A DNA stretch of 64,000 bases from a virus (taxonomy: Duplodnaviria > Caudoviricetes): the IMG/VR virus record IMGVR_UViG_3300028805_000075, positions 1 through 64,000 of that record; one strand, 5' to 3'. The stretch's first letter is position 1. Every line of letters begins with the position of its first letter. Both the position numbers and the translations under genes were made by a program. The notes under the pieces were generated by a model. That model searched no databases. It was not told the DNA's origin and saw nothing but the letters and a program-made list of their open reading frames with translations. Shown here piece by piece: positions 7,049 to 13,180 of the stretch.

Positions 7049-7131
7049 TGGTGCGCGAGGCGGGATTTGAACCCGCAAGCTTTCGCCGACAGATTTTAAG
7101 TCTGTTGTGTATGCCGTTCCACCACTCGCGC
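7049..7131 (-). tRNA. tRNA-Leu(UAA)
   Basis: ACAGA-CTTAAAA-TCTGT; variable arm; A73, CCA. Confidence 0.92.
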
Positions 7132-7135
7132 ATAG

Positions 7136-7212
7136 TGGCGGGGGAGCTGGGGTTCGAACCCAGACATGACCGATTTTAGAGACCGGCGCCTTCCCAATTT
7201 GGCTACTCCCCA
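7136..7212 (-). tRNA. amber suppressor tRNA (anticodon CUA), Gln-type
   Basis: TGGGGAGTAGCCAAATTGGGAAGGCGCCGGT-CTCTAAA-ATCGG...CTCCCCCGCCA; U1xC72 mismatch, G2-C71, G3-C70, G73. Confidence 0.92.
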
Positions 7213-7254
7213 ATAGAAGAGAGAATATTTTATTCTCTCAAATCTTATGTAAAT

Positions 7255-7283
7255 ATTATATCAAAATTTTAAAAGAAAATCAA
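7255..7283 (-). promoter_or_regulatory. sigmaA-like promoter directly upstream of the suppressor tRNA
   Basis: TTGATT-N17-TATAAT, extended TG. Confidence 0.75.
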
Positions 7284-7287
7284 AATT

Positions 7288-7743
7288 TTACTTTGCCAAT
7301 TCTTCAATATGATCGAAAGTTTTGTCAATAAAAACTCCCAACTTGTCAAGAGTCTTATTTACATCACCTAGAAACTCTCGCATTTCATAATCAAAATCAG
7401 AAAGAAAAATAAAGGCAGTATTTGCAATCTTTGCATCCATACGATCTGTGGCGATATATCTACCAAGAGTTTCATCAAAATTATCGCCATCTTCGTAATT
7501 GCATTTAGCCACTGTTACAATACTTTTTTCGGCTGAACGACTTTTAGTCCATCTTTCAAAGAAGCTTCTAACCCAATCTTCAAAAAAGTTGAACCAGGTT
7601 ACGCCTCCAAGCATTGTATTCTGGTATTTGTTCAAAAGTTTTCGCATCGCAACATTAAAGACCTCATCATAAAAGGCCTTCCGCGACATCTTCGCTACAA
7701 CCACGCCAAGCGGCTCATTTACATAAATTTCATACTTACTCAT
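7288..7743 (-). CDS. hypothetical protein
   Basis: 151-aa ORF, translationally coupled to the upstream ORF. Confidence 0.7.
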   Translation of the reverse strand: MSKYEIYVNEPLGVVVAKMSRKAFYDEVFNVAMRKLLNKYQNTMLGGVTWFNFFEDWVRSFFERWTKSRSAEKSIVTVAKCNYEDGDNFDETLGRYIATDRMDAKIANTAFIFLSDFDYEMREFLGDVNKTLDKLGVFIDKTFDHIEELAK

Positions 7744-8023
7744 TTTCGTTCTCCATTTCTTTCATTTCTTTAATTTTATTCCAATATTTACACCGCGCGC
7801 AGTCTACATTATAGCATTTCGCGCATTCAATACCATCAGGTCGAATACCTTTATTCAAAAAAGGATCGTGCTGACCACCAACAAGATCGGTAATTTTAAT
7901 ATGCAAAGCATCCTTTAAATTTTGGTCGAGGACTGAAATAAACTTTTGATAAAATCTATCTTGTTCTGCCAAACTCAATTCATCAAATCCAAATTCCACC
8001 TTATAAGTTGCCTGCTTCGCCAT
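7736..8023 (-). CDS. hypothetical protein with CxxCxxxxCxxC motif
   Basis: 95-aa ORF, AAGGAG RBS, promoter at 8055-8083. Confidence 0.7.
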   Translation of the reverse strand: MAKQATYKVEFGFDELSLAEQDRFYQKFISVLDQNLKDALHIKITDLVGGQHDPFLNKGIRPDGIECAKCYNVDCARCKYWNKIKEMKEMENENE

Positions 8024-8093
8024 TTAACTAATCTCCTTTTCATTTTCTATATATATTATATCATAAAATTTGAAAAATTGCAAATTTACTCTG

Positions 8094-8285
8094 TTAATAA
8101 CTGCGCGAAGCTAATGCACGCACTTCTTCTGGAGATTCTTCTACTTCATATGTAGTATTATTTACTAAAATAATAGTATCCATATCAAATGTACTGGATT
8201 TCCATATTGCACAAATATGAGAGGGACGCACATAAATTGGCTTCCCTCCTCCAAATCTTTGATGAAGTATAATAAAATCTTCCAT
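8094..8285 (-). CDS. FlbD/SwrD-like small protein
   Basis: MEDFIILH...KPIYVRPSHI...DTII...YEVEESPEEV resembles the FlbD family pattern. Confidence 0.45.
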   Translation of the reverse strand: MEDFIILHQRFGGGKPIYVRPSHICAIWKSSTFDMDTIILVNNTTYEVEESPEEVRALASRSY

Positions 8286-8286
8286 A

Positions 8287-9780
8287 TTACACCTTAGTAA
8301 TAACCTTATCATACATCGGATTCATAAGCACCGTAAGCATAGCATCATATGCAGACTTACAATTCAATGTACTGATAAGATCACGAAATACTGAAGCAGA
8401 AGAACCACTAAGATATTTAACTCCTTCGCGCGCAGTACCAATATAAGTATTCGCACGTGCTTCCACGTTCCAAAAAACGAGCTGCGGAATTTCATATCCA
8501 GCTTCTTGGAATTTGCGCTTCCACTTAGTTACAAAATCAAGATTAGAATTGGCTCGCATATAACAGTCAATCTCCATATCTGAAATTACAACAAGCGCGC
8601 GGGGCATATCTTCTGCCGGAACGTTATTACGAACCGCAGTATTATATACCAGCTCAAAAGCTTTATCAAGATTAGTATTGTACCCAACATCAGTAAAAGC
8701 CTTCTCGCACATGGACTGAAGAGTTTCATACGGTTTTACCTTAATATATTTCGGATTATGCGTGAAAGTAAGATACAATCCCGCAAACTCACCATGATTA
8801 CGCTGTGCAAAATAATTTGCAAGTCCAATCGAAGTAGCCATTGGCCGCCCAGCCATAGAGCCACTAACGTCTGCCATAACAAGCACATTCGCGCCGTCTT
8901 CAATGTAATTAGGCAAAGCCTTCCACTGCTGTTCAGTCAATTCATCGTACTTAAAGCTTATGCTCCAGGCAGAATTTGTAGAAATCTTTTCTACAAGATC
9001 ATAAGGATACAATGTACTCGCATTAACCTTAACACCCTTTTCGTTATTCTTAAGAGCATTAAGATACTGATTCCAACGATCAAAATCATGCTTTGCAAAT
9101 GCAGAACCATAGTTCTTAATCGCATAAGCCGGAACTTGAGAATAATTAATCTTATTCCATTCCTGCGCGCTCATCTGATGTTCAGTAACATTAAGATACT
9201 CACGCATGCGCGCGAGCACTTTACGATACTGCTTTTCAGACTTAAAACCAAGCCCCTTCATGGTTCTGCGCGCGAGCTTACGAGATTCTTCACTAGCAGT
9301 ATTAATGGACTTCATCCATTTTGCAAGAAGAGAAATCGGCTTATGAGCAAGCATCTTCTCATAATCGTCATTAAGTCGCGCAAACATCCAACTCCACATT
9401 TCTGCTTCTGCCGGAGTATCAAGATACTCATAAAGATCATCAAATCTGCCAAATTCCACTACATTAGGAATATTAGCAATAGCAAGAGTAGGATTATTAT
9501 TGCAAAGCCAATTAAGCATAATGCGAAAAGTTCTACGTTCACCAAGGCCACCGCGCGCATTACGTGTATAAAACATAAGTCGCATTGCCAATGCGCGATC
9601 TTCATTAAAAGCTTCTGCAAAAGCGTCACTAATTTCTTTTTCGGTTCTGGTACGCATAGCACCTACAATACCAAAAAGGTCAAGCAAAGCTCCACCATTA
9701 GTAGTATTATAAGCAAGCGCGCCATTTTCAGTTAACTTACGGGAGGACAATTCATTAGCTGATTCAATAAATTTATTCAT
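8287..9780 (-). CDS. DUF2828-family protein (helical N-terminal domain + vWA; Ro60/TROVE-like architecture)
   Basis: TENGA, RNARGGLGERRTFR, LLAKW motifs; vWA MIDAS DVSGS and ISDME; VFWNV; ATG 9780 after AAAGGAG. Confidence 0.85.
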   Translation of the reverse strand: MNKFIESANELSSRKLTENGALAYNTTNGGALLDLFGIVGAMRTRTEKEISDAFAEAFNEDRALAMRLMFYTRNARGGLGERRTFRIMLNWLCNNNPTLAIANIPNVVEFGRFDDLYEYLDTPAEAEMWSWMFARLNDDYEKMLAHKPISLLAKWMKSINTASEESRKLARRTMKGLGFKSEKQYRKVLARMREYLNVTEHQMSAQEWNKINYSQVPAYAIKNYGSAFAKHDFDRWNQYLNALKNNEKGVKVNASTLYPYDLVEKISTNSAWSISFKYDELTEQQWKALPNYIEDGANVLVMADVSGSMAGRPMATSIGLANYFAQRNHGEFAGLYLTFTHNPKYIKVKPYETLQSMCEKAFTDVGYNTNLDKAFELVYNTAVRNNVPAEDMPRALVVISDMEIDCYMRANSNLDFVTKWKRKFQEAGYEIPQLVFWNVEARANTYIGTAREGVKYLSGSSASVFRDLISTLNCKSAYDAMLTVLMNPMYDKVITKV

Positions 9781-9792
9781 ATTAACTCCTTT

Positions 9793-9837
9793 CAAGATGT
9801 TTTTAATTGCGCCTTTTATATTTGCTGCTCACATCTT
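9793..9837 (-). promoter_or_regulatory. CAGCAA-motif stem in the 5' leader of the DUF2828 gene
   Basis: AAGATGT-GAGCAGCAA...ACATCTTG between promoter (9850-9878) and Shine-Dalgarno. Confidence 0.7.
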
Positions 9838-9849
9838 TTTTCTATATAT

Positions 9850-9878
9850 AGTATAGCAAAATTTTCAAAAAAAATCAA
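9850..9878 (-). promoter_or_regulatory. sigmaA-like promoter of the DUF2828 operon
   Basis: TTGATT-N17-TATACT, extended TG. Confidence 0.7.
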
Positions 9879-9973
9879 AAAAAGAAAGACCTAAATTTTA
9901 GATCTTTCTCTTCATATTATTTATACGCGCTCGCGTGCGCGTAAATATATTATTTTTTTAAAAAAGTCAAATT

Positions 9974-10387
9974 TTATTCTTTTTCTTCGGAAATTGGTAC
10001 ATAAATATCCTTTACAGAATTAACTGCACTTTCAAGATAAATGTTAACATAATTTTCAATAGAGCCATAAGCTGCTTCTATAGCATATTTTGTTGCTTCA
10101 GTTATCATTTGCTTAAATACTTCTGTCGTATCACGACGAGCTTTCGCAGCTTGCTCTTCAGTTAAACTACCATTTGCTAATTTTATGGCTTCGACCCAAA
10201 TCTGATTTGTGGTGCGCGCGGCTCTTGCAAGAATCTCATAAGCCCCATCAACGAGTGCAATTTGTTCTTTAGAAGCATTATTCTTAACCAAAACTTGTCT
10301 AATTGCTATACCAATTACAATAATAGCTACTGGCACTAATCCTTCTAATAATTGCGCTAAAATCTTCATCCAAAAACTACTATCCAT
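9974..10387 (-). CDS. putative holin
   Basis: N-terminal TM helix, LL-H-holin-like 'YLESAV' tail; downstream of the endolysin. Confidence 0.6.
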   Translation of the reverse strand: MDSSFWMKILAQLLEGLVPVAIIVIGIAIRQVLVKNNASKEQIALVDGAYEILARAARTTNQIWVEAIKLANGSLTEEQAAKARRDTTEVFKQMITEATKYAIEAAYGSIENYVNIYLESAVNSVKDIYVPISEEKE

Positions 10388-10710
10388 TAATCAACAGGTT
10401 CCTCCTCTATATCGCCAAGACGTAAGCTAGCGACTTCATAATAAAGTTCTTTATTTTCATCTTCTGGTATTATTTCTTCGTTTTCAGTATTAGCTGCTAA
10501 ACGAAGTGTTTTTTCTTTTTCTTTTCGATTTTTTATCATACCGCATACTGAATATTCACCAACACAAGCAGCAAATACCGCAGTAATAAGTATATCTGGA
10601 GTCTGCCCATAAAAACAAAATACGACAATCATTCCAATAGTAAAAATAAAAAGAAAAGTAAACATTAAAATTAATACTTTTTTTATAAAATCATCTTTTA
10701 CTTCAGTCAT
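10387..10710 (-). CDS. two-TM membrane protein (lysis cassette)
   Basis: Two hydrophobic helices; overlaps neighbours. Confidence 0.6.
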   Translation of the reverse strand: MTEVKDDFIKKVLILMFTFLFIFTIGMIVVFCFYGQTPDILITAVFAACVGEYSVCGMIKNRKEKEKTLRLAANTENEEIIPEDENKELYYEVASLRLGDIEEEPVD

Positions 10711-11638
10711 ATTTTAATAGCTCCTTAAAATTCCAATAATCTTCCCAAGGTGAAAAAGTGTGCATTTTTCGTTCAATAAAATTCCAAACTCTTCGCTTAT
10801 CTCGTGCAGTTAACTAGCAACCATACGCGCCACCTACAAATTCAACAACATATCCACCACCAACGTAAGTACCAATATGGCCAGGACGATGAATAAAAGT
10901 GCCAGGAAGGGCTTCTTCTTTTGTTGTTTGTACAGAGTACTTTTTACTAGCAAGCGCTGTAGAATTAGCATCAAACGTATTAGATGTTAACTTAAATTTT
11001 CTTAACCAGCCTACTTCACATCCAGAGCAATCAGAGCCAGGAAGCTTGGAGTTTTTTGCTACTTGTTCAAGCATCCATTCCTTTCTACCACCATCATAGT
11101 TTGTAGGATATTTTTCGGCGCCGCGCCGTATCATCGCAGCAGTTGCATAATTTGGTTCTAACTTTTTATTATATAAATTTTCTGCCCACATATAAAGCGC
11201 GCGAACATCTCCTTCACGGTATTCAGGATCATACGCCCAATTAAGTAAATCCAATACTATATTGCGACGAAGCTCACTTACTTTAGAAAGATCCGCTTCA
11301 ATTAACTTACGTTTCTTTGGACTAATCCAAGTACATGAATCAAGGAGACCTTTTGTTGGAGTTGGTACAGGCGTTGGGATTGGAGTTGGGATTGGAATTG
11401 GCTGGCCATCCGCTGCGGCAACTATCATATCCCAGCATTCTTTATATACTGTACCAGTTATATTAATTTTATATTCTTTTTGAAATTTTTTCGTTGCTTC
11501 AACACTATCTTGTCGAAATTTATTATTGGTAATTTTTTTAATTCTATCAGAATACATTCCGAGAGCAAATAATTTATTTTTAATATATAGAACATCATTA
11601 CCAGACATACCTTTAATTATAGTACGTTTAAATTCCAT
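10703..11638 (-). CDS. endolysin: PG-binding domain + PT linker + NlpC/P60-like catalytic domain, 311 aa, one TAG
   Basis: GMSGNDV...FQ PG-binding motif, DCSG and GHIG motifs; continues past the TAG at 10814 to TGA at 10703. Confidence 0.8.
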
Positions 11639-11740
11639 ATTAATTCCTCCATATATTCCTATATTATAAGTTACGTTTTTGTTTGAAAAATCTCATAATT
11701 TGCGTTTATTTGAAAAATATGATATAATATAAATATAAAG

Positions 11741-12163
11741 ATGGAGGAATTATTTATGAATGAAAAATTAATTGACCAAATTATTGGTAACGTTTTTATA
11801 AATATGTGGGGTTATGCAAATAGAAATAATGGAATTATTGAAATTAGAGAATTAGATTTAAATAAAAATGATGATTTTATTTGTTTAACTATTGCAAATA
11901 TGGCAAGTTCGTTATATGGATGTAAAATTAAAGTAAATATGAATTTGTTTCAATATTTAAAATATCTTAAAGAGAACAAAATTAAATTATTTAATAAAAC
12001 CTATATTTGGAGTCCATTTAAGAAAGGATACCTTCCACATAAATGGCTTTATGATGTAAGTGAAGCCTGCGGGCAAGATAAAAATTTTTGGAGTGAAGTC
12101 TATAACTATTTAAAAGAGGACGGAATTAATGAATCAAATAATACCGAAACTAATGAAAAATAA
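11741..12163 (+). CDS. hypothetical protein
   Basis: ORF after promoter 11700-11728. Confidence 0.65.
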   Translation: MEELFMNEKLIDQIIGNVFINMWGYANRNNGIIEIRELDLNKNDDFICLTIANMASSLYGCKIKVNMNLFQYLKYLKENKIKLFNKTYIWSPFKKGYLPHKWLYDVSEACGQDKNFWSEVYNYLKEDGINESNNTETNEK

Positions 12164-12623: not shown

Positions 12624-13165
12624 GAGTTTTTTGTGTTAATGGGCAAAGAGAGTCTGGAAAGACTACTTTTGAATAGTTTTGTTTTGCTTTAAATCCAATA
12701 TATGTACGTAGTTATTCTTCTATTGATTTTATAAAATAGATCGCGCGCGGAATTGGATGGGATGGAACAAAAGGTGACAAAGATAGAAAGTTTTTAGGAG
12801 ATTTAAAGTAGCTTCTAATTGAATATAACGATCTTCCTTTTAAAGATGTAAATAACTATATCGTAAGATAGATATAGTGGGCTGCAAATAGAGATTTAGA
12901 TTTTGATAAATTGATCTTTTTTATAGATGTGCGCGAACCTGAAGAAATAGAAAAATTGCGCCGCGCGCATAAAGCGTAGACAATATTGTTAAAAAGAGGT
13001 AACAATAAGGAAAGTCTTAGCAAAGGAGATAATACCGAAGATATTTTAAATTATCAGTATGATTACATTATAGAAAATAGCGGTAATTTAGAAGATTTAA
13101 AAAGGGCTGCTTATGAATTTATGGATACAAATGGATTAATTTTAGGTACAAAAAAAGACGCTTAA
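12620..13165 (+). CDS. P-loop deoxynucleoside monophosphate kinase-like protein, 181 aa, several TAGs
   Basis: MRVFCVNGQRESGKTT...GWDG.K..KDRKFL..LK...FIDVREPEEI; missed by the ORF track because of TAGs. Confidence 0.7.
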
Positions 13166-13180
13166 TAGCGTCTTATTTTT
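13150..13180. terminator. bidirectional intrinsic terminator
   Basis: AAAAAAGACGC-TTAATA-GCGTCTTATTTTT between convergent genes. Confidence 0.7.

What the first reader, a model, noticed from the sequence alone, without database searches (positions are those of the whole stretch)
9781..9878. Probable translational autoregulation of DUF2828 through its own RNA motif
Seen: the CAGCAA helix begins a few nt after the predicted TSS, and its 3' arm ends immediately before the SD (AAAGGAG). Inference: free protein binds its own leader and represses translation, keeping protein stoichiometric with the decoy RNAs, as many ribosomal proteins do.
Basis: inference. Interest (0 to 1): 0.7.

Follow-up and report, generated by a model that had tools for sequence, protein, structure and literature searches.

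The report
Ro60-like gene leader mimics partner RNA
The short leader in front of a phage gene for a Ro60-shaped RNA-binding protein (DUF2828) is a stripped-down copy of the small RNAs that travel with this protein in many phages. It sits right against the ribosome-binding site, so the protein could switch off its own synthesis, but this has not been tested.

Summary
On the minus strand, a promoter (9878-9850) is followed 5-6 nt after the predicted start by the helix AAGAUGU/ACAUCUU (9837-9831 / 9800-9794). The helix encloses CAGCAA (9827-9822) and ends 1 nt before AAAGGAG and the ATG at 9780.

The fold alone is not special (z 0.34), but comparison shows the element is real:
- The motif lies within 130 nt upstream of 62 of 82 fetched DUF2828 homologues.
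- The helix is paired in 99% of cells, and all 7 pairs show compensatory changes.
- All 140 covariance-model hits are on the DUF2828 strand.
- In whole phage genomes (Tsamsa, A511, LeBron) hits occur only beside the gene.

The protein model best matches Ro60 structures. This phage has four longer copies in its tRNA arrays, which earlier notes of this scan on this window also read as partner RNAs.

For autoregulation:
- Payload-less copies (48 nt or less) are almost confined to the leader position.
- They abut the SD or an SD-pairing hairpin.
- Leaders of this clade have weakened CAGCAA boxes.

Against autoregulation:
- No binding or reporter data exist.
- Felix O1, LeBron and others lack a leader copy.
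- Upstream Y RNA genes are normal for Ro60 operons.

Verdict: a real protein-binding leader. Autogenous translational repression is the best-supported reading (about 0.45) but is unproven.

The parts
9879..9913 (-). Terminator-like hairpin plus T run closing the upstream gene, so the DUF2828 gene starts its own transcription unit
   Evidence: 16-pair stem, T tail; the same arrangement is seen in L001
9850..9878 (-). Sigma-70-type promoter: TTGATT, 17-nt spacer, TGcTATACT (extended -10). The start is predicted near 9843.
   Evidence: one of six copies of promoter repeat family D1. The start is not measured.
9831..9837 (-). 5' arm of the handle helix, AAGAUGU
   Evidence: compensatory changes in relatives
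9822..9827 (-). Unpaired CAGCAA box just 3' of the 5' arm, preceded here by G instead of the usual A
   Evidence: CAGCAA in 102 of 121 model hits
9807..9813 (-). GGCGCAA box in the loop. GGCGC is kept in all 8 leaders of this clade and is absent from the free-standing copies.
   Evidence: it may be a remnant of the 3' junction of site B (weak)
9793..9800 (-). 3' arm ACAUCUU plus the conserved following G
9786..9792 (-). Shine-Dalgarno AAAGGAG. It starts 1 nt after the handle and is unpaired in the predicted and consensus folds.
8290..9780 (-). DUF2828/DUF7788 gene (497 aa) with a Ro60-like fold: HEAT-repeat ring plus vWA domain
   Evidence: Pfam. AF2 model pLDDT 76.7. Best Foldseek matches are phage, Xenopus, Deinococcus and human Ro60, E 7e-7 to 4e-4, over the full length.
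2643..2771 (-). Free-standing copy (site B) between tRNA-Asp and tRNA-Pro. Same handle (AAGAUACGU / ACAGCAA / ACGUAUCUUG) carrying a permuted tRNA elbow.
   Evidence: R2 29.7 bits, E 1e-4; Rfam YrlA 39 bits, below the gathering score of 69; sequence
1354..1444 (-). Free-standing copy (site A). Same handle (AAGACGCAU / ACAGCAA / AUGCGUCUUG) carrying an anticodon-arm-like hairpin and a T arm.
   Evidence: R1 29.8 bits (not in the seed); R2 43.7 bits; sequence

Best explanation
The 5' untranslated leader of the DUF2828 mRNA is a payload-less copy of the 'CAGCAA handle'. The handle consists of a helix whose base is A-G-R paired with Y-C-U, an unpaired (A)CAGCAA on the 5' side, and a 3' UG. The phage's tRNA-like small RNAs carry this same handle. 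Shown: the element is conserved, covaries, is always on the DUF2828 strand and lies next to DUF2828 genes in many phage families, and the protein model has a Ro60-like fold. Inferred: the DUF2828 protein binds the handle, as Ro60 binds the stem of Y RNAs. Inferred further: when protein exceeds its partner RNAs it binds the weaker leader copy. That copy ends 1 nt before the Shine-Dalgarno sequence, so binding keeps the 30S subunit off and limits the protein's own synthesis. This would be autogenous translational repression by target mimicry, as in ribosomal proteins and ThrRS. The RNA alone leaves the SD free, so repression would need the protein.
For: Anatomy.
Conservation upstream of homologues: 62 of 82 loci. 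RNAalifold predicts the helix independently in the 7 leaders of this clade, with 4 compensatory pairs and the SD unpaired.
Covariation: 99.1% of cells paired, 7 of 7 pairs with double changes, score 0.576 against 0.223 for shuffles.
Specific association with the gene: 121 of 121 and 140 of 140 model hits are co-oriented with DUF2828. Whole-record scans of Tsamsa (5 hits), A511 (2) and LeBron (1) hit only within about 3 kb of the gene. In the own genome there are 5 copies.
Ro60 fold.
Features pointing to an operator:
- Elements of 48 nt or less are in leader position in 9 of 11 cases, from about 6 lineages (Fisher p 5e-5, not corrected for relatedness).
- The gap to the SD is 0-3 nt in 21 of 45 distinct leaders.
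- In two other lineages an SD-pairing hairpin abuts the handle (z -2.5 and -3.2).
- Leaders of this clade have degenerate boxes in 6 of 8 cases, while 8 of 8 free-standing copies in the same loci are canonical.
- In KVP40-like phages the 3' arm would be the start codon itself.
Against: - There is no binding, reporter or transcript-end data. Binding by DUF2828 rests on association and on the fold.
- The hairpin is thermodynamically ordinary.
- 24 of 45 distinct leaders sit 9-52 nt from the SD.
- In many relatives the SD-proximal copy is a full-size member of a tandem array. Closeness to the SD may then only reflect compact packing.
- Felix O1, LeBron, phiAS5, Klebsiella phi1 and Staphylococcus S-CoN_Ph11 have copies only downstream or none in the leader.
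- In L124 and L126 a gene of about 300 codons is inserted between the leader and the DUF2828 start, so close coupling is dispensable there.
- The canonical-box difference over all lineages is marginal (p 0.047).
- The KVP40-like helix is weak and shows no covariation.
Confidence: 0.45

Rival explanations
1. The leader is simply one more partner-RNA gene, a minimal Y-like RNA transcribed with the protein gene and cut out of the 5' UTR. It lies upstream because Ro60-type operons are built that way, and it exerts no feedback on translation.
For: In M. smegmatis, YrlA and YrlB lie upstream of rsr and are processed from one precursor. Thermus phage phiLo has Yrl1 and Yrl2 upstream of its Ro60 gene (papers PMC4201824 and PMC12135203). 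In relatives the upstream copies form arrays of 2-5 full-size elements, the last next to the SD. The median length of proximal copies equals that of other copies (59 against 61 nt).
Against: The leader of this clade has no payload module, its own promoter and a clade-specific GGCGC box. It lies 7 kb from the other copies. Payload-less copies are nearly confined to the SD-proximal position. No terminator or tRNA-type processing site separates it from the SD.
Confidence: 0.28
2. The 5'-proximal hairpin, alone or with bound protein, stabilises the mRNA or enhances its translation. Regulation would then be positive or neutral rather than repressive.
For: The helix starts 5-10 nt from the predicted 5' end in this clade and in L149, L156, L168 and L197. 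By established knowledge, 5'-terminal stem-loops protect mRNAs from RNase E and RNase J.
Against: A stabiliser needs no conserved CAGCAA or A-G-R/Y-C-U base, yet these are shared with the free-standing RNAs. Hairpin stability is low.
Confidence: 0.12
3. The handle is recognised by another factor, such as a host or phage tRNA-processing or repair enzyme. DUF2828 is merely a neighbour, so the leader is not an autoregulatory site.
For: Four of the five copies in this phage lie inside tRNA arrays and carry tRNA-like modules. There is no direct evidence for DUF2828 binding.
Against: In A511, CP30A, Enterococcus iF6 and Staphylococcus S-CoN_Ph11 no tRNA gene is annotated between the copies and the DUF2828 gene, or near them. 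Genome-wide hits in Tsamsa, A511 and LeBron lie only beside the gene. The protein model has an RNA-binding Ro60 fold.
Confidence: 0.1
4. The leader is a chance hairpin or a decaying relic of a partner RNA with no function.
For: MFE z 0.34. The CAGCAA box is degenerate in several leaders of the clade.
Against: The helix is kept through compensatory changes in five different arm versions among 8 leaders. The GGCGC box is invariant and the position relative to promoter and SD is fixed.
Confidence: 0.05

Closest known systems
Autogenous translational repression by target mimicry (E. coli thrS operator mimicking the tRNA-Thr anticodon arm; ribosomal proteins L1, S8, S15, L20; phage T4 gp32/RegA; MS2 coat-protein operator)
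   Same: A binding site resembling the protein's primary RNA ligand lies in the protein's own 5' leader next to or over the SD or start codon. The leader copy is reduced and its sequence weakened relative to the primary ligands.
   Different: Nothing here is tested experimentally. The protein is a Ro60-fold phage protein, for which I found no report of such control in the papers searched. The SD is outside the helix, so repression would be by steric hindrance.
Ro60 (Rsr) with Y RNAs, especially YrlA/YrlB (Rfam RF02553; Chen et al. 2014, PMC4201824) and Thermus phage phiLo Ro60 with Yrl1/Yrl2 (PMC12135203)
   Same: A ring-plus-vWA protein fold. Small RNAs are encoded within a few kb on the same strand, often upstream. 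They have a closing stem as the presumed protein handle and tRNA-like modules (site B hits YrlA at 39 bits).
   Different: The protein belongs to Pfam DUF2828/DUF7788, not TROVE, and a sequence profile finds no Ro60 in the PDB. The handle is A-G-R/Y-C-U plus ACAGCAA rather than the GNCGAAN0-1G motif. The leader copy has no tRNA-like module and gives no Rfam hit.
Bas63 (Felixounavirus) gp130, a Ro60-like protein upstream of tRNA genes that counters the Ppl defence (PhageMaP preprint, PMC11482910)
   Same: It is probably the DUF2828 orthologue. Felix O1 ORF86 is DUF2828, is followed by tRNAs and is shared by 251 related records. The authors guessed that some 'tRNAs' there are Y RNAs. I find CAGCAA-handle elements between the Felix O1 tRNAs.
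   Different: I did not verify the identity of gp130 with DUF2828. Felixounaviruses have no leader copy, so this says nothing about autoregulation.

Membership tests
CAGCAA-handle RNA associated with DUF2828 (family defined here; not in Rfam 15) | A closing helix of at least 6 bp whose base is A-G-R paired with Y-C-U, followed by U/A-G | tested here: met
   AAGAUGU/ACAUCUU-G. R1 38.1 bits (seed member) and R2 37.8 bits. Pair statistics.
CAGCAA-handle RNA associated with DUF2828 (family defined here; not in Rfam 15) | An unpaired (A)CAGCAA 0-4 nt after the 5' arm | tested here: met
   gagCAGCAA at 9830-9822. The preceding base is G, not the usual A.
CAGCAA-handle RNA associated with DUF2828 (family defined here; not in Rfam 15) | Lies within a few kb of a DUF2828 gene on the same strand | tested here: met
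   It ends 13 nt before the ATG of the gene. Family-wide, 140 of 140 hits are on the gene's strand, and genome-wide hits lie only near the gene.
YrlA / Y RNA (Rfam RF02553, RF00019) | Scores at or above the Rfam gathering threshold | tested here: not met
   No Y RNA or YrlA hit on 7000-12000 even at E <= 10. Only site B reaches 39 bits against a gathering score of 69.
YrlA / Y RNA (Rfam RF02553, RF00019) | A tRNA-like module (T arm, D arm, acceptor-like hairpin) | tested here: not met
   The leader loop is 30 nt with no such arms. Aligned to site B, about 77 nt holding the tRNA elbow are missing.
YrlA / Y RNA (Rfam RF02553, RF00019) | Bound by a Ro60 orthologue | not testable with these tools
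   Only the Ro60-like fold of the neighbouring protein is shown.
Autogenous translational operator | The site lies in the regulator's own mRNA, overlapping or abutting the SD or start codon | tested here: met
   The 3' arm ends at 9794 and the SD spans 9792-9786. The gap is 0-3 nt in 21 of 45 distinct leaders.
Autogenous translational operator | The site resembles the regulator's primary RNA target | tested here: met
   It shares the handle with four payload-bearing copies in the same genome. That these copies are the protein's targets is inferred.
Autogenous translational operator | The protein binds the site and lowers translation of its own mRNA | not testable with these tools
   This needs EMSA, toeprinting and reporter fusions.
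Ro60 / TROVE protein family (for the gene product) | Matches the Pfam TROVE domain, or Ro60 sequences by profile | tested here: not met
   Pfam gives DUF2828, DUF7788 and a weak VWA_2 only. The profile search of PDB sequences finds no Ro60.
Ro60 / TROVE protein family (for the gene product) | HEAT-repeat ring plus C-terminal vWA fold | tested here: met
   The 12 best Foldseek matches are all Ro60 orthologues, aligned over the full length, TM 0.43-0.56. Model pLDDT is 76.7.

The most novel reading that the evidence does not exclude
A widespread phage branch of the Ro60/Y-RNA world (DUF2828 plus CAGCAA-handle RNAs) uses a payload-less Y-RNA handle in the protein's own leader as a translational operator. 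This has arisen or been kept in at least six lineages. It would be the first autoregulatory loop described for any Ro60-type particle, and it would define the minimal RNA needed for protein binding.
Probability: 0.4. Interest if true: 0.75.

Novelty: new variant of a known kind. Interest (0 to 1): 0.6.

Why it matters
Ro60 and Y RNAs are studied from bacteria to human autoimmunity, yet little is known about how the amount of protein is matched to its RNAs. I found no report of feedback through a Y-RNA mimic. If the leader is an operator, it gives the minimal binding site (about 45 nt) of a large, uncharacterised phage protein family. That family occurs in 708 phage records, including Felix O1, A511, Tsamsa and KVP40-like phages, and a likely member counters a bacterial defence. 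An operator would also make the protein-RNA contact testable with a simple reporter. Even if the feedback idea fails, the leader shows which parts of the partner RNAs are the protein 'handle' and which are payload.

Tried and rejected
- A pattern scan of viral contigs for GCAAATAT-N3-8-GGCGCAA was non-specific. Of 115 loci only L001 and the window encode DUF2828.
- A loose descriptor (AGR helix of 6 bp or more, plus CAGC) has a background equal to the observed count in the window (5 against 4.55 in shuffles). I therefore used only the stringent form and the covariance models.
- Rfam at gathering and E-value thresholds gave nothing for the leader.
- The profile search of PDB sequences did not reach Ro60; the link rests on fold comparison.
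- The literature search for DUF2828 gave only plant and tardigrade mentions.
- The search for Ro60 autoregulation gave nothing relevant.
- I considered pairing of CAGCAA with a downstream segment and found no complementary partner in the three window copies.
- KVP40-like leaders, where the start codon would lie in the 3' arm, were kept only as a weak hint (E 0.14-0.25, no covariation, weak fold).
- Guessing the Bas63 accession failed (one search returned Bas27), so the identity of gp130 with DUF2828 is inferred from the Felixounavirus core gene.
- Pfam on ten neighbouring ORFs gave no RNA-repair partner.

Full report
**What is there**

The gene is on the minus strand. A 497-aa ORF (8290-9780, ATG at 9780) matches Pfam DUF2828 (5e-36) and DUF7788 (1.5e-30), with a weak vWA signal. 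Upstream, in order:
- a terminator-like hairpin that closes the previous gene (9913-9879)
- a promoter, TTGATT-17-TGcTATACT (9878-9850)
- the helix AAGAUGU (9837-9831) / ACAUCUU (9800-9794), enclosing gagCAGCAA (9830-9822) and a GGCGCAA box (9813-9807)
- G 9793, then AAAGGAG (9792-9786) and five bases before the ATG

The promoter is one of six copies of a phage promoter repeat, which puts the start near 9843.

The hairpin alone is unremarkable: -7.9 kcal/mol, z 0.34, with the SD unpaired. The CAGCAA hexamer is not enriched in the window.

**It is one member of a repeated RNA element**

The composite pattern AAGA-N2-8-CAGCAA occurs six times against 1.26 expected. Three occurrences are on the minus strand, at 1428, 2755 and 9822. 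Read on the minus strand, the other two have the same closing-helix architecture with different, complementary arms:
- AAGACGCAU...AUGCGUCUUG
- AAGAUACGU...ACGUAUCUUG

Both carry tRNA-like payloads. Site B (2643-2771) matches Rfam YrlA over the full model at 39 bits, below the gathering score of 69. Site A (1354-1444) carries an anticodon-arm-like hairpin and a T arm.

A covariance model built only from 12 short leaders of relatives (R1) finds site A at 29.8 bits. A second model (R2) run with filters off scores site A at 43.7 bits, the leader at 37.8 and site B at 29.7. Nothing else in the 64 kb scores below E 0.05.

The whole 121-kb phage record holds two further payload-bearing copies at 119028-119103 and 120055-120116, next to more tRNAs. 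The phage therefore has four payload copies in its tRNA arrays and one minimal copy in the DUF2828 leader.

Earlier notes of this scan on this same window read sites A and B as partner RNAs of DUF2828. I reached the same reading from my own calls, but those notes are not independent evidence.

I fetched 1 viral and 80 metagenomic loci encoding homologues of 78-43% identity; with the window's own locus that makes 82. In 62 of the 82 loci (51 distinct sequences), a helix plus CAGC motif lies within 130 nt upstream of the start codon.

Counted from the helix base over 46 distinct leaders:

| Position | Pairs seen |
|---|---|
| 1 | A-U in 46 of 46 |
| 2 | G-C in 45 of 46 |
| 3-8 | switch among AU, GC, CG, UA and GU |

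On 121 model hits the helix is paired in 99.1% of cells. All 7 pairs show changes on both sides, and the covariation score is 0.576 against 0.223 for shuffles. With partners slid by 1-3 columns, only 29-55% of cells pair. That alignment is fitted to the model, which favours pairing. However, RNAalifold on the seven unfitted leaders of this clade predicts the same helix, with four compensatory pairs, and leaves the SD unpaired.

**Association with the gene**

- All 121 R1 hits (E <= 0.5) and all 140 R2 hits (E <= 0.05) lie on the DUF2828 strand.
- In cultured phages that were not in any seed, R2 finds copies next to the gene. They lie upstream in Tsamsa, A511, CP30A and Enterococcus iF6, on both sides in Synechococcus B3, and downstream in LeBron, Staphylococcus S-CoN_Ph11, Felix O1 and Klebsiella phi1.
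- Whole-record scans hit only next to the gene: Tsamsa (169 kb, 5 hits), A511 (138 kb, 2 hits) and LeBron (73 kb, 1 hit).
- No Rfam family other than tRNA and sub-threshold YrlA covers these elements.

**The protein**

An AlphaFold2 model (pLDDT 76.7) has Ro60 orthologues as its twelve best PDB matches, aligned over the full length:
- Thermus phage phiLo (9kop, E 7e-7, TM 0.53/0.56)
- Xenopus Ro60
- Deinococcus Rsr
- human Ro60

A sequence profile does not reach Ro60. This is therefore a Ro60-like fold outside the TROVE sequence family.

Published Y RNAs were sought only near TROVE-annotated proteins, and their handle motif is GNCGAAN0-1G (PMC4201824). A preprint reports that Bas63 gp130 is Ro60-like, lies upstream of tRNAs and counters the Ppl defence (PMC11482910). 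It is probably the Felixounavirus DUF2828 orthologue, but I did not verify this.

**Operator or just another partner RNA?**

For an operator:
1. Among 134 distinct R2 hits, elements of 48 nt or less (no payload) make up 9 of 33 leader-position copies but only 2 of 101 others (Fisher p 5e-5, not corrected for relatedness).
   - The nine come from about six lineages: this clade, L197, L149, L173, L137 and L192.
   - One of the two exceptions, L124, is the same leader separated from the gene by an inserted ORF.
2. These minimal leaders lie 1-3 nt from the SD, or are followed directly by a hairpin whose 3' arm pairs with the SD (L137 z -2.5, L149 z -3.2).
3. In this clade 6 of 8 leaders have a weakened box (CGGCAA, CAGCAG, CAGCGA, CAGCAT), while all 8 free-standing copies in the same loci read ACAGCAA. 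A lower-affinity operator would look like this. The leaders are not decaying, because the helix covaries and a GGCGC box is invariant.
4. Aligned with site B, the leader looks like site B with its tRNA elbow deleted. This similarity is modest.

Against an operator:
- There is no experimental evidence of binding or repression.
- 24 of 45 distinct leaders are 9-52 nt from the SD.
- In many relatives the SD-proximal copy is a normal member of a tandem array.
- Several lineages have no leader copy at all.
- In L124 and L126 a 299-codon ORF, open only if TAG is read as a sense codon, separates the leader from the gene.
- Upstream, co-transcribed Y RNAs are normal for Ro60.

**Verdict**

| Claim | My estimate |
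|---|---|
| The leader is a real, conserved member of a DUF2828-linked RNA family | about 0.95 |
| The DUF2828 protein binds it (well-founded inference) | about 0.7 |
| It mediates autogenous translational repression (leading hypothesis, unproven) | about 0.45 |

The main rival is a co-transcribed mini partner RNA without feedback (about 0.28).

Noticed in passing
L124:1946-3003 (also L126): In two close relatives the same promoter, minimal leader and SD are followed by a roughly 1-kb insertion instead of the DUF2828 ATG. The insertion holds a 299-codon Cys-rich ORF with 13 in-frame TAG codons, open only with TAG read as a sense codon. It is possibly a homing endonuclease. A second SD precedes DUF2828. 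This is a natural uncoupling of leader and gene.
   Followed up: partly
G000 119028-119103 (-) and 120055-120116 (-), outside the window: Two further payload-bearing CAGCAA-handle copies (32.3 and 39.3 bits) lie beside six more tRNA genes at the other end of the linear record. They are probably contiguous with the window's tRNA array on a circular map.
   Followed up: partly
L143:2896-2960, L169:2923-2983, L170:2896-2959, L139:492-561, L152:2893-2962: Many leader copies in more distant gut and bioreactor relatives carry a hairpin with the 7-nt loop CUUUUAA. This matches an anticodon loop of tRNA-Lys(UUU) with U33 and A37. Site A of the window has CUGUAAA (Tyr GUA-like). The payloads look like anticodon-arm mimics.
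   Followed up: no
L202:1165-1205 (Vibrio phage ValKK3), L205:1466-1505 (Vibrio phage 1.081.O): In KVP40-like phages a single minimal element starts at the predicted transcription start, holds the SD in its loop, and its 3' arm would be AUGUC, the start codon. The model scores are weak (E 0.14-0.25), there is no covariation, and the fold is weak.
   Followed up: partly
L138:1657-2266: Nine tandem copies of 50-52 nt (two alternating types) lie directly downstream of a DUF2828 gene, spaced about 10 nt apart. This is the densest array seen.
   Followed up: no
L198:2953-3700 (Salmonella phage Felix O1): Four AGAAGACC...CAGCAA elements are interspersed with the annotated tRNA genes downstream of ORF86 (DUF2828). 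Some overlap small annotated ORFs on the opposite strand, which are therefore doubtful.
   Followed up: partly
window 2310-3570 (-): A long non-coding, GC-richer stretch lies behind its own promoter copy, with no Rfam hit. It contains one GAGCAGCAA (2936-2944). The handle models do not score it.
   Followed up: no
window 7136-7212 (-): A tRNA with anticodon CUA (amber suppressor) lies in the array, and many ORFs of relatives need TAG read as a sense codon. The DUF2828 gene itself has no in-frame TAG.
   Followed up: no
window 13154-13176 (+): The hairpin AAAGACGC-N-GCGUCUU has the handle-like helix but no CAGCAA box (E 1.1-1.8). It is probably chance or a terminator.
   Followed up: no
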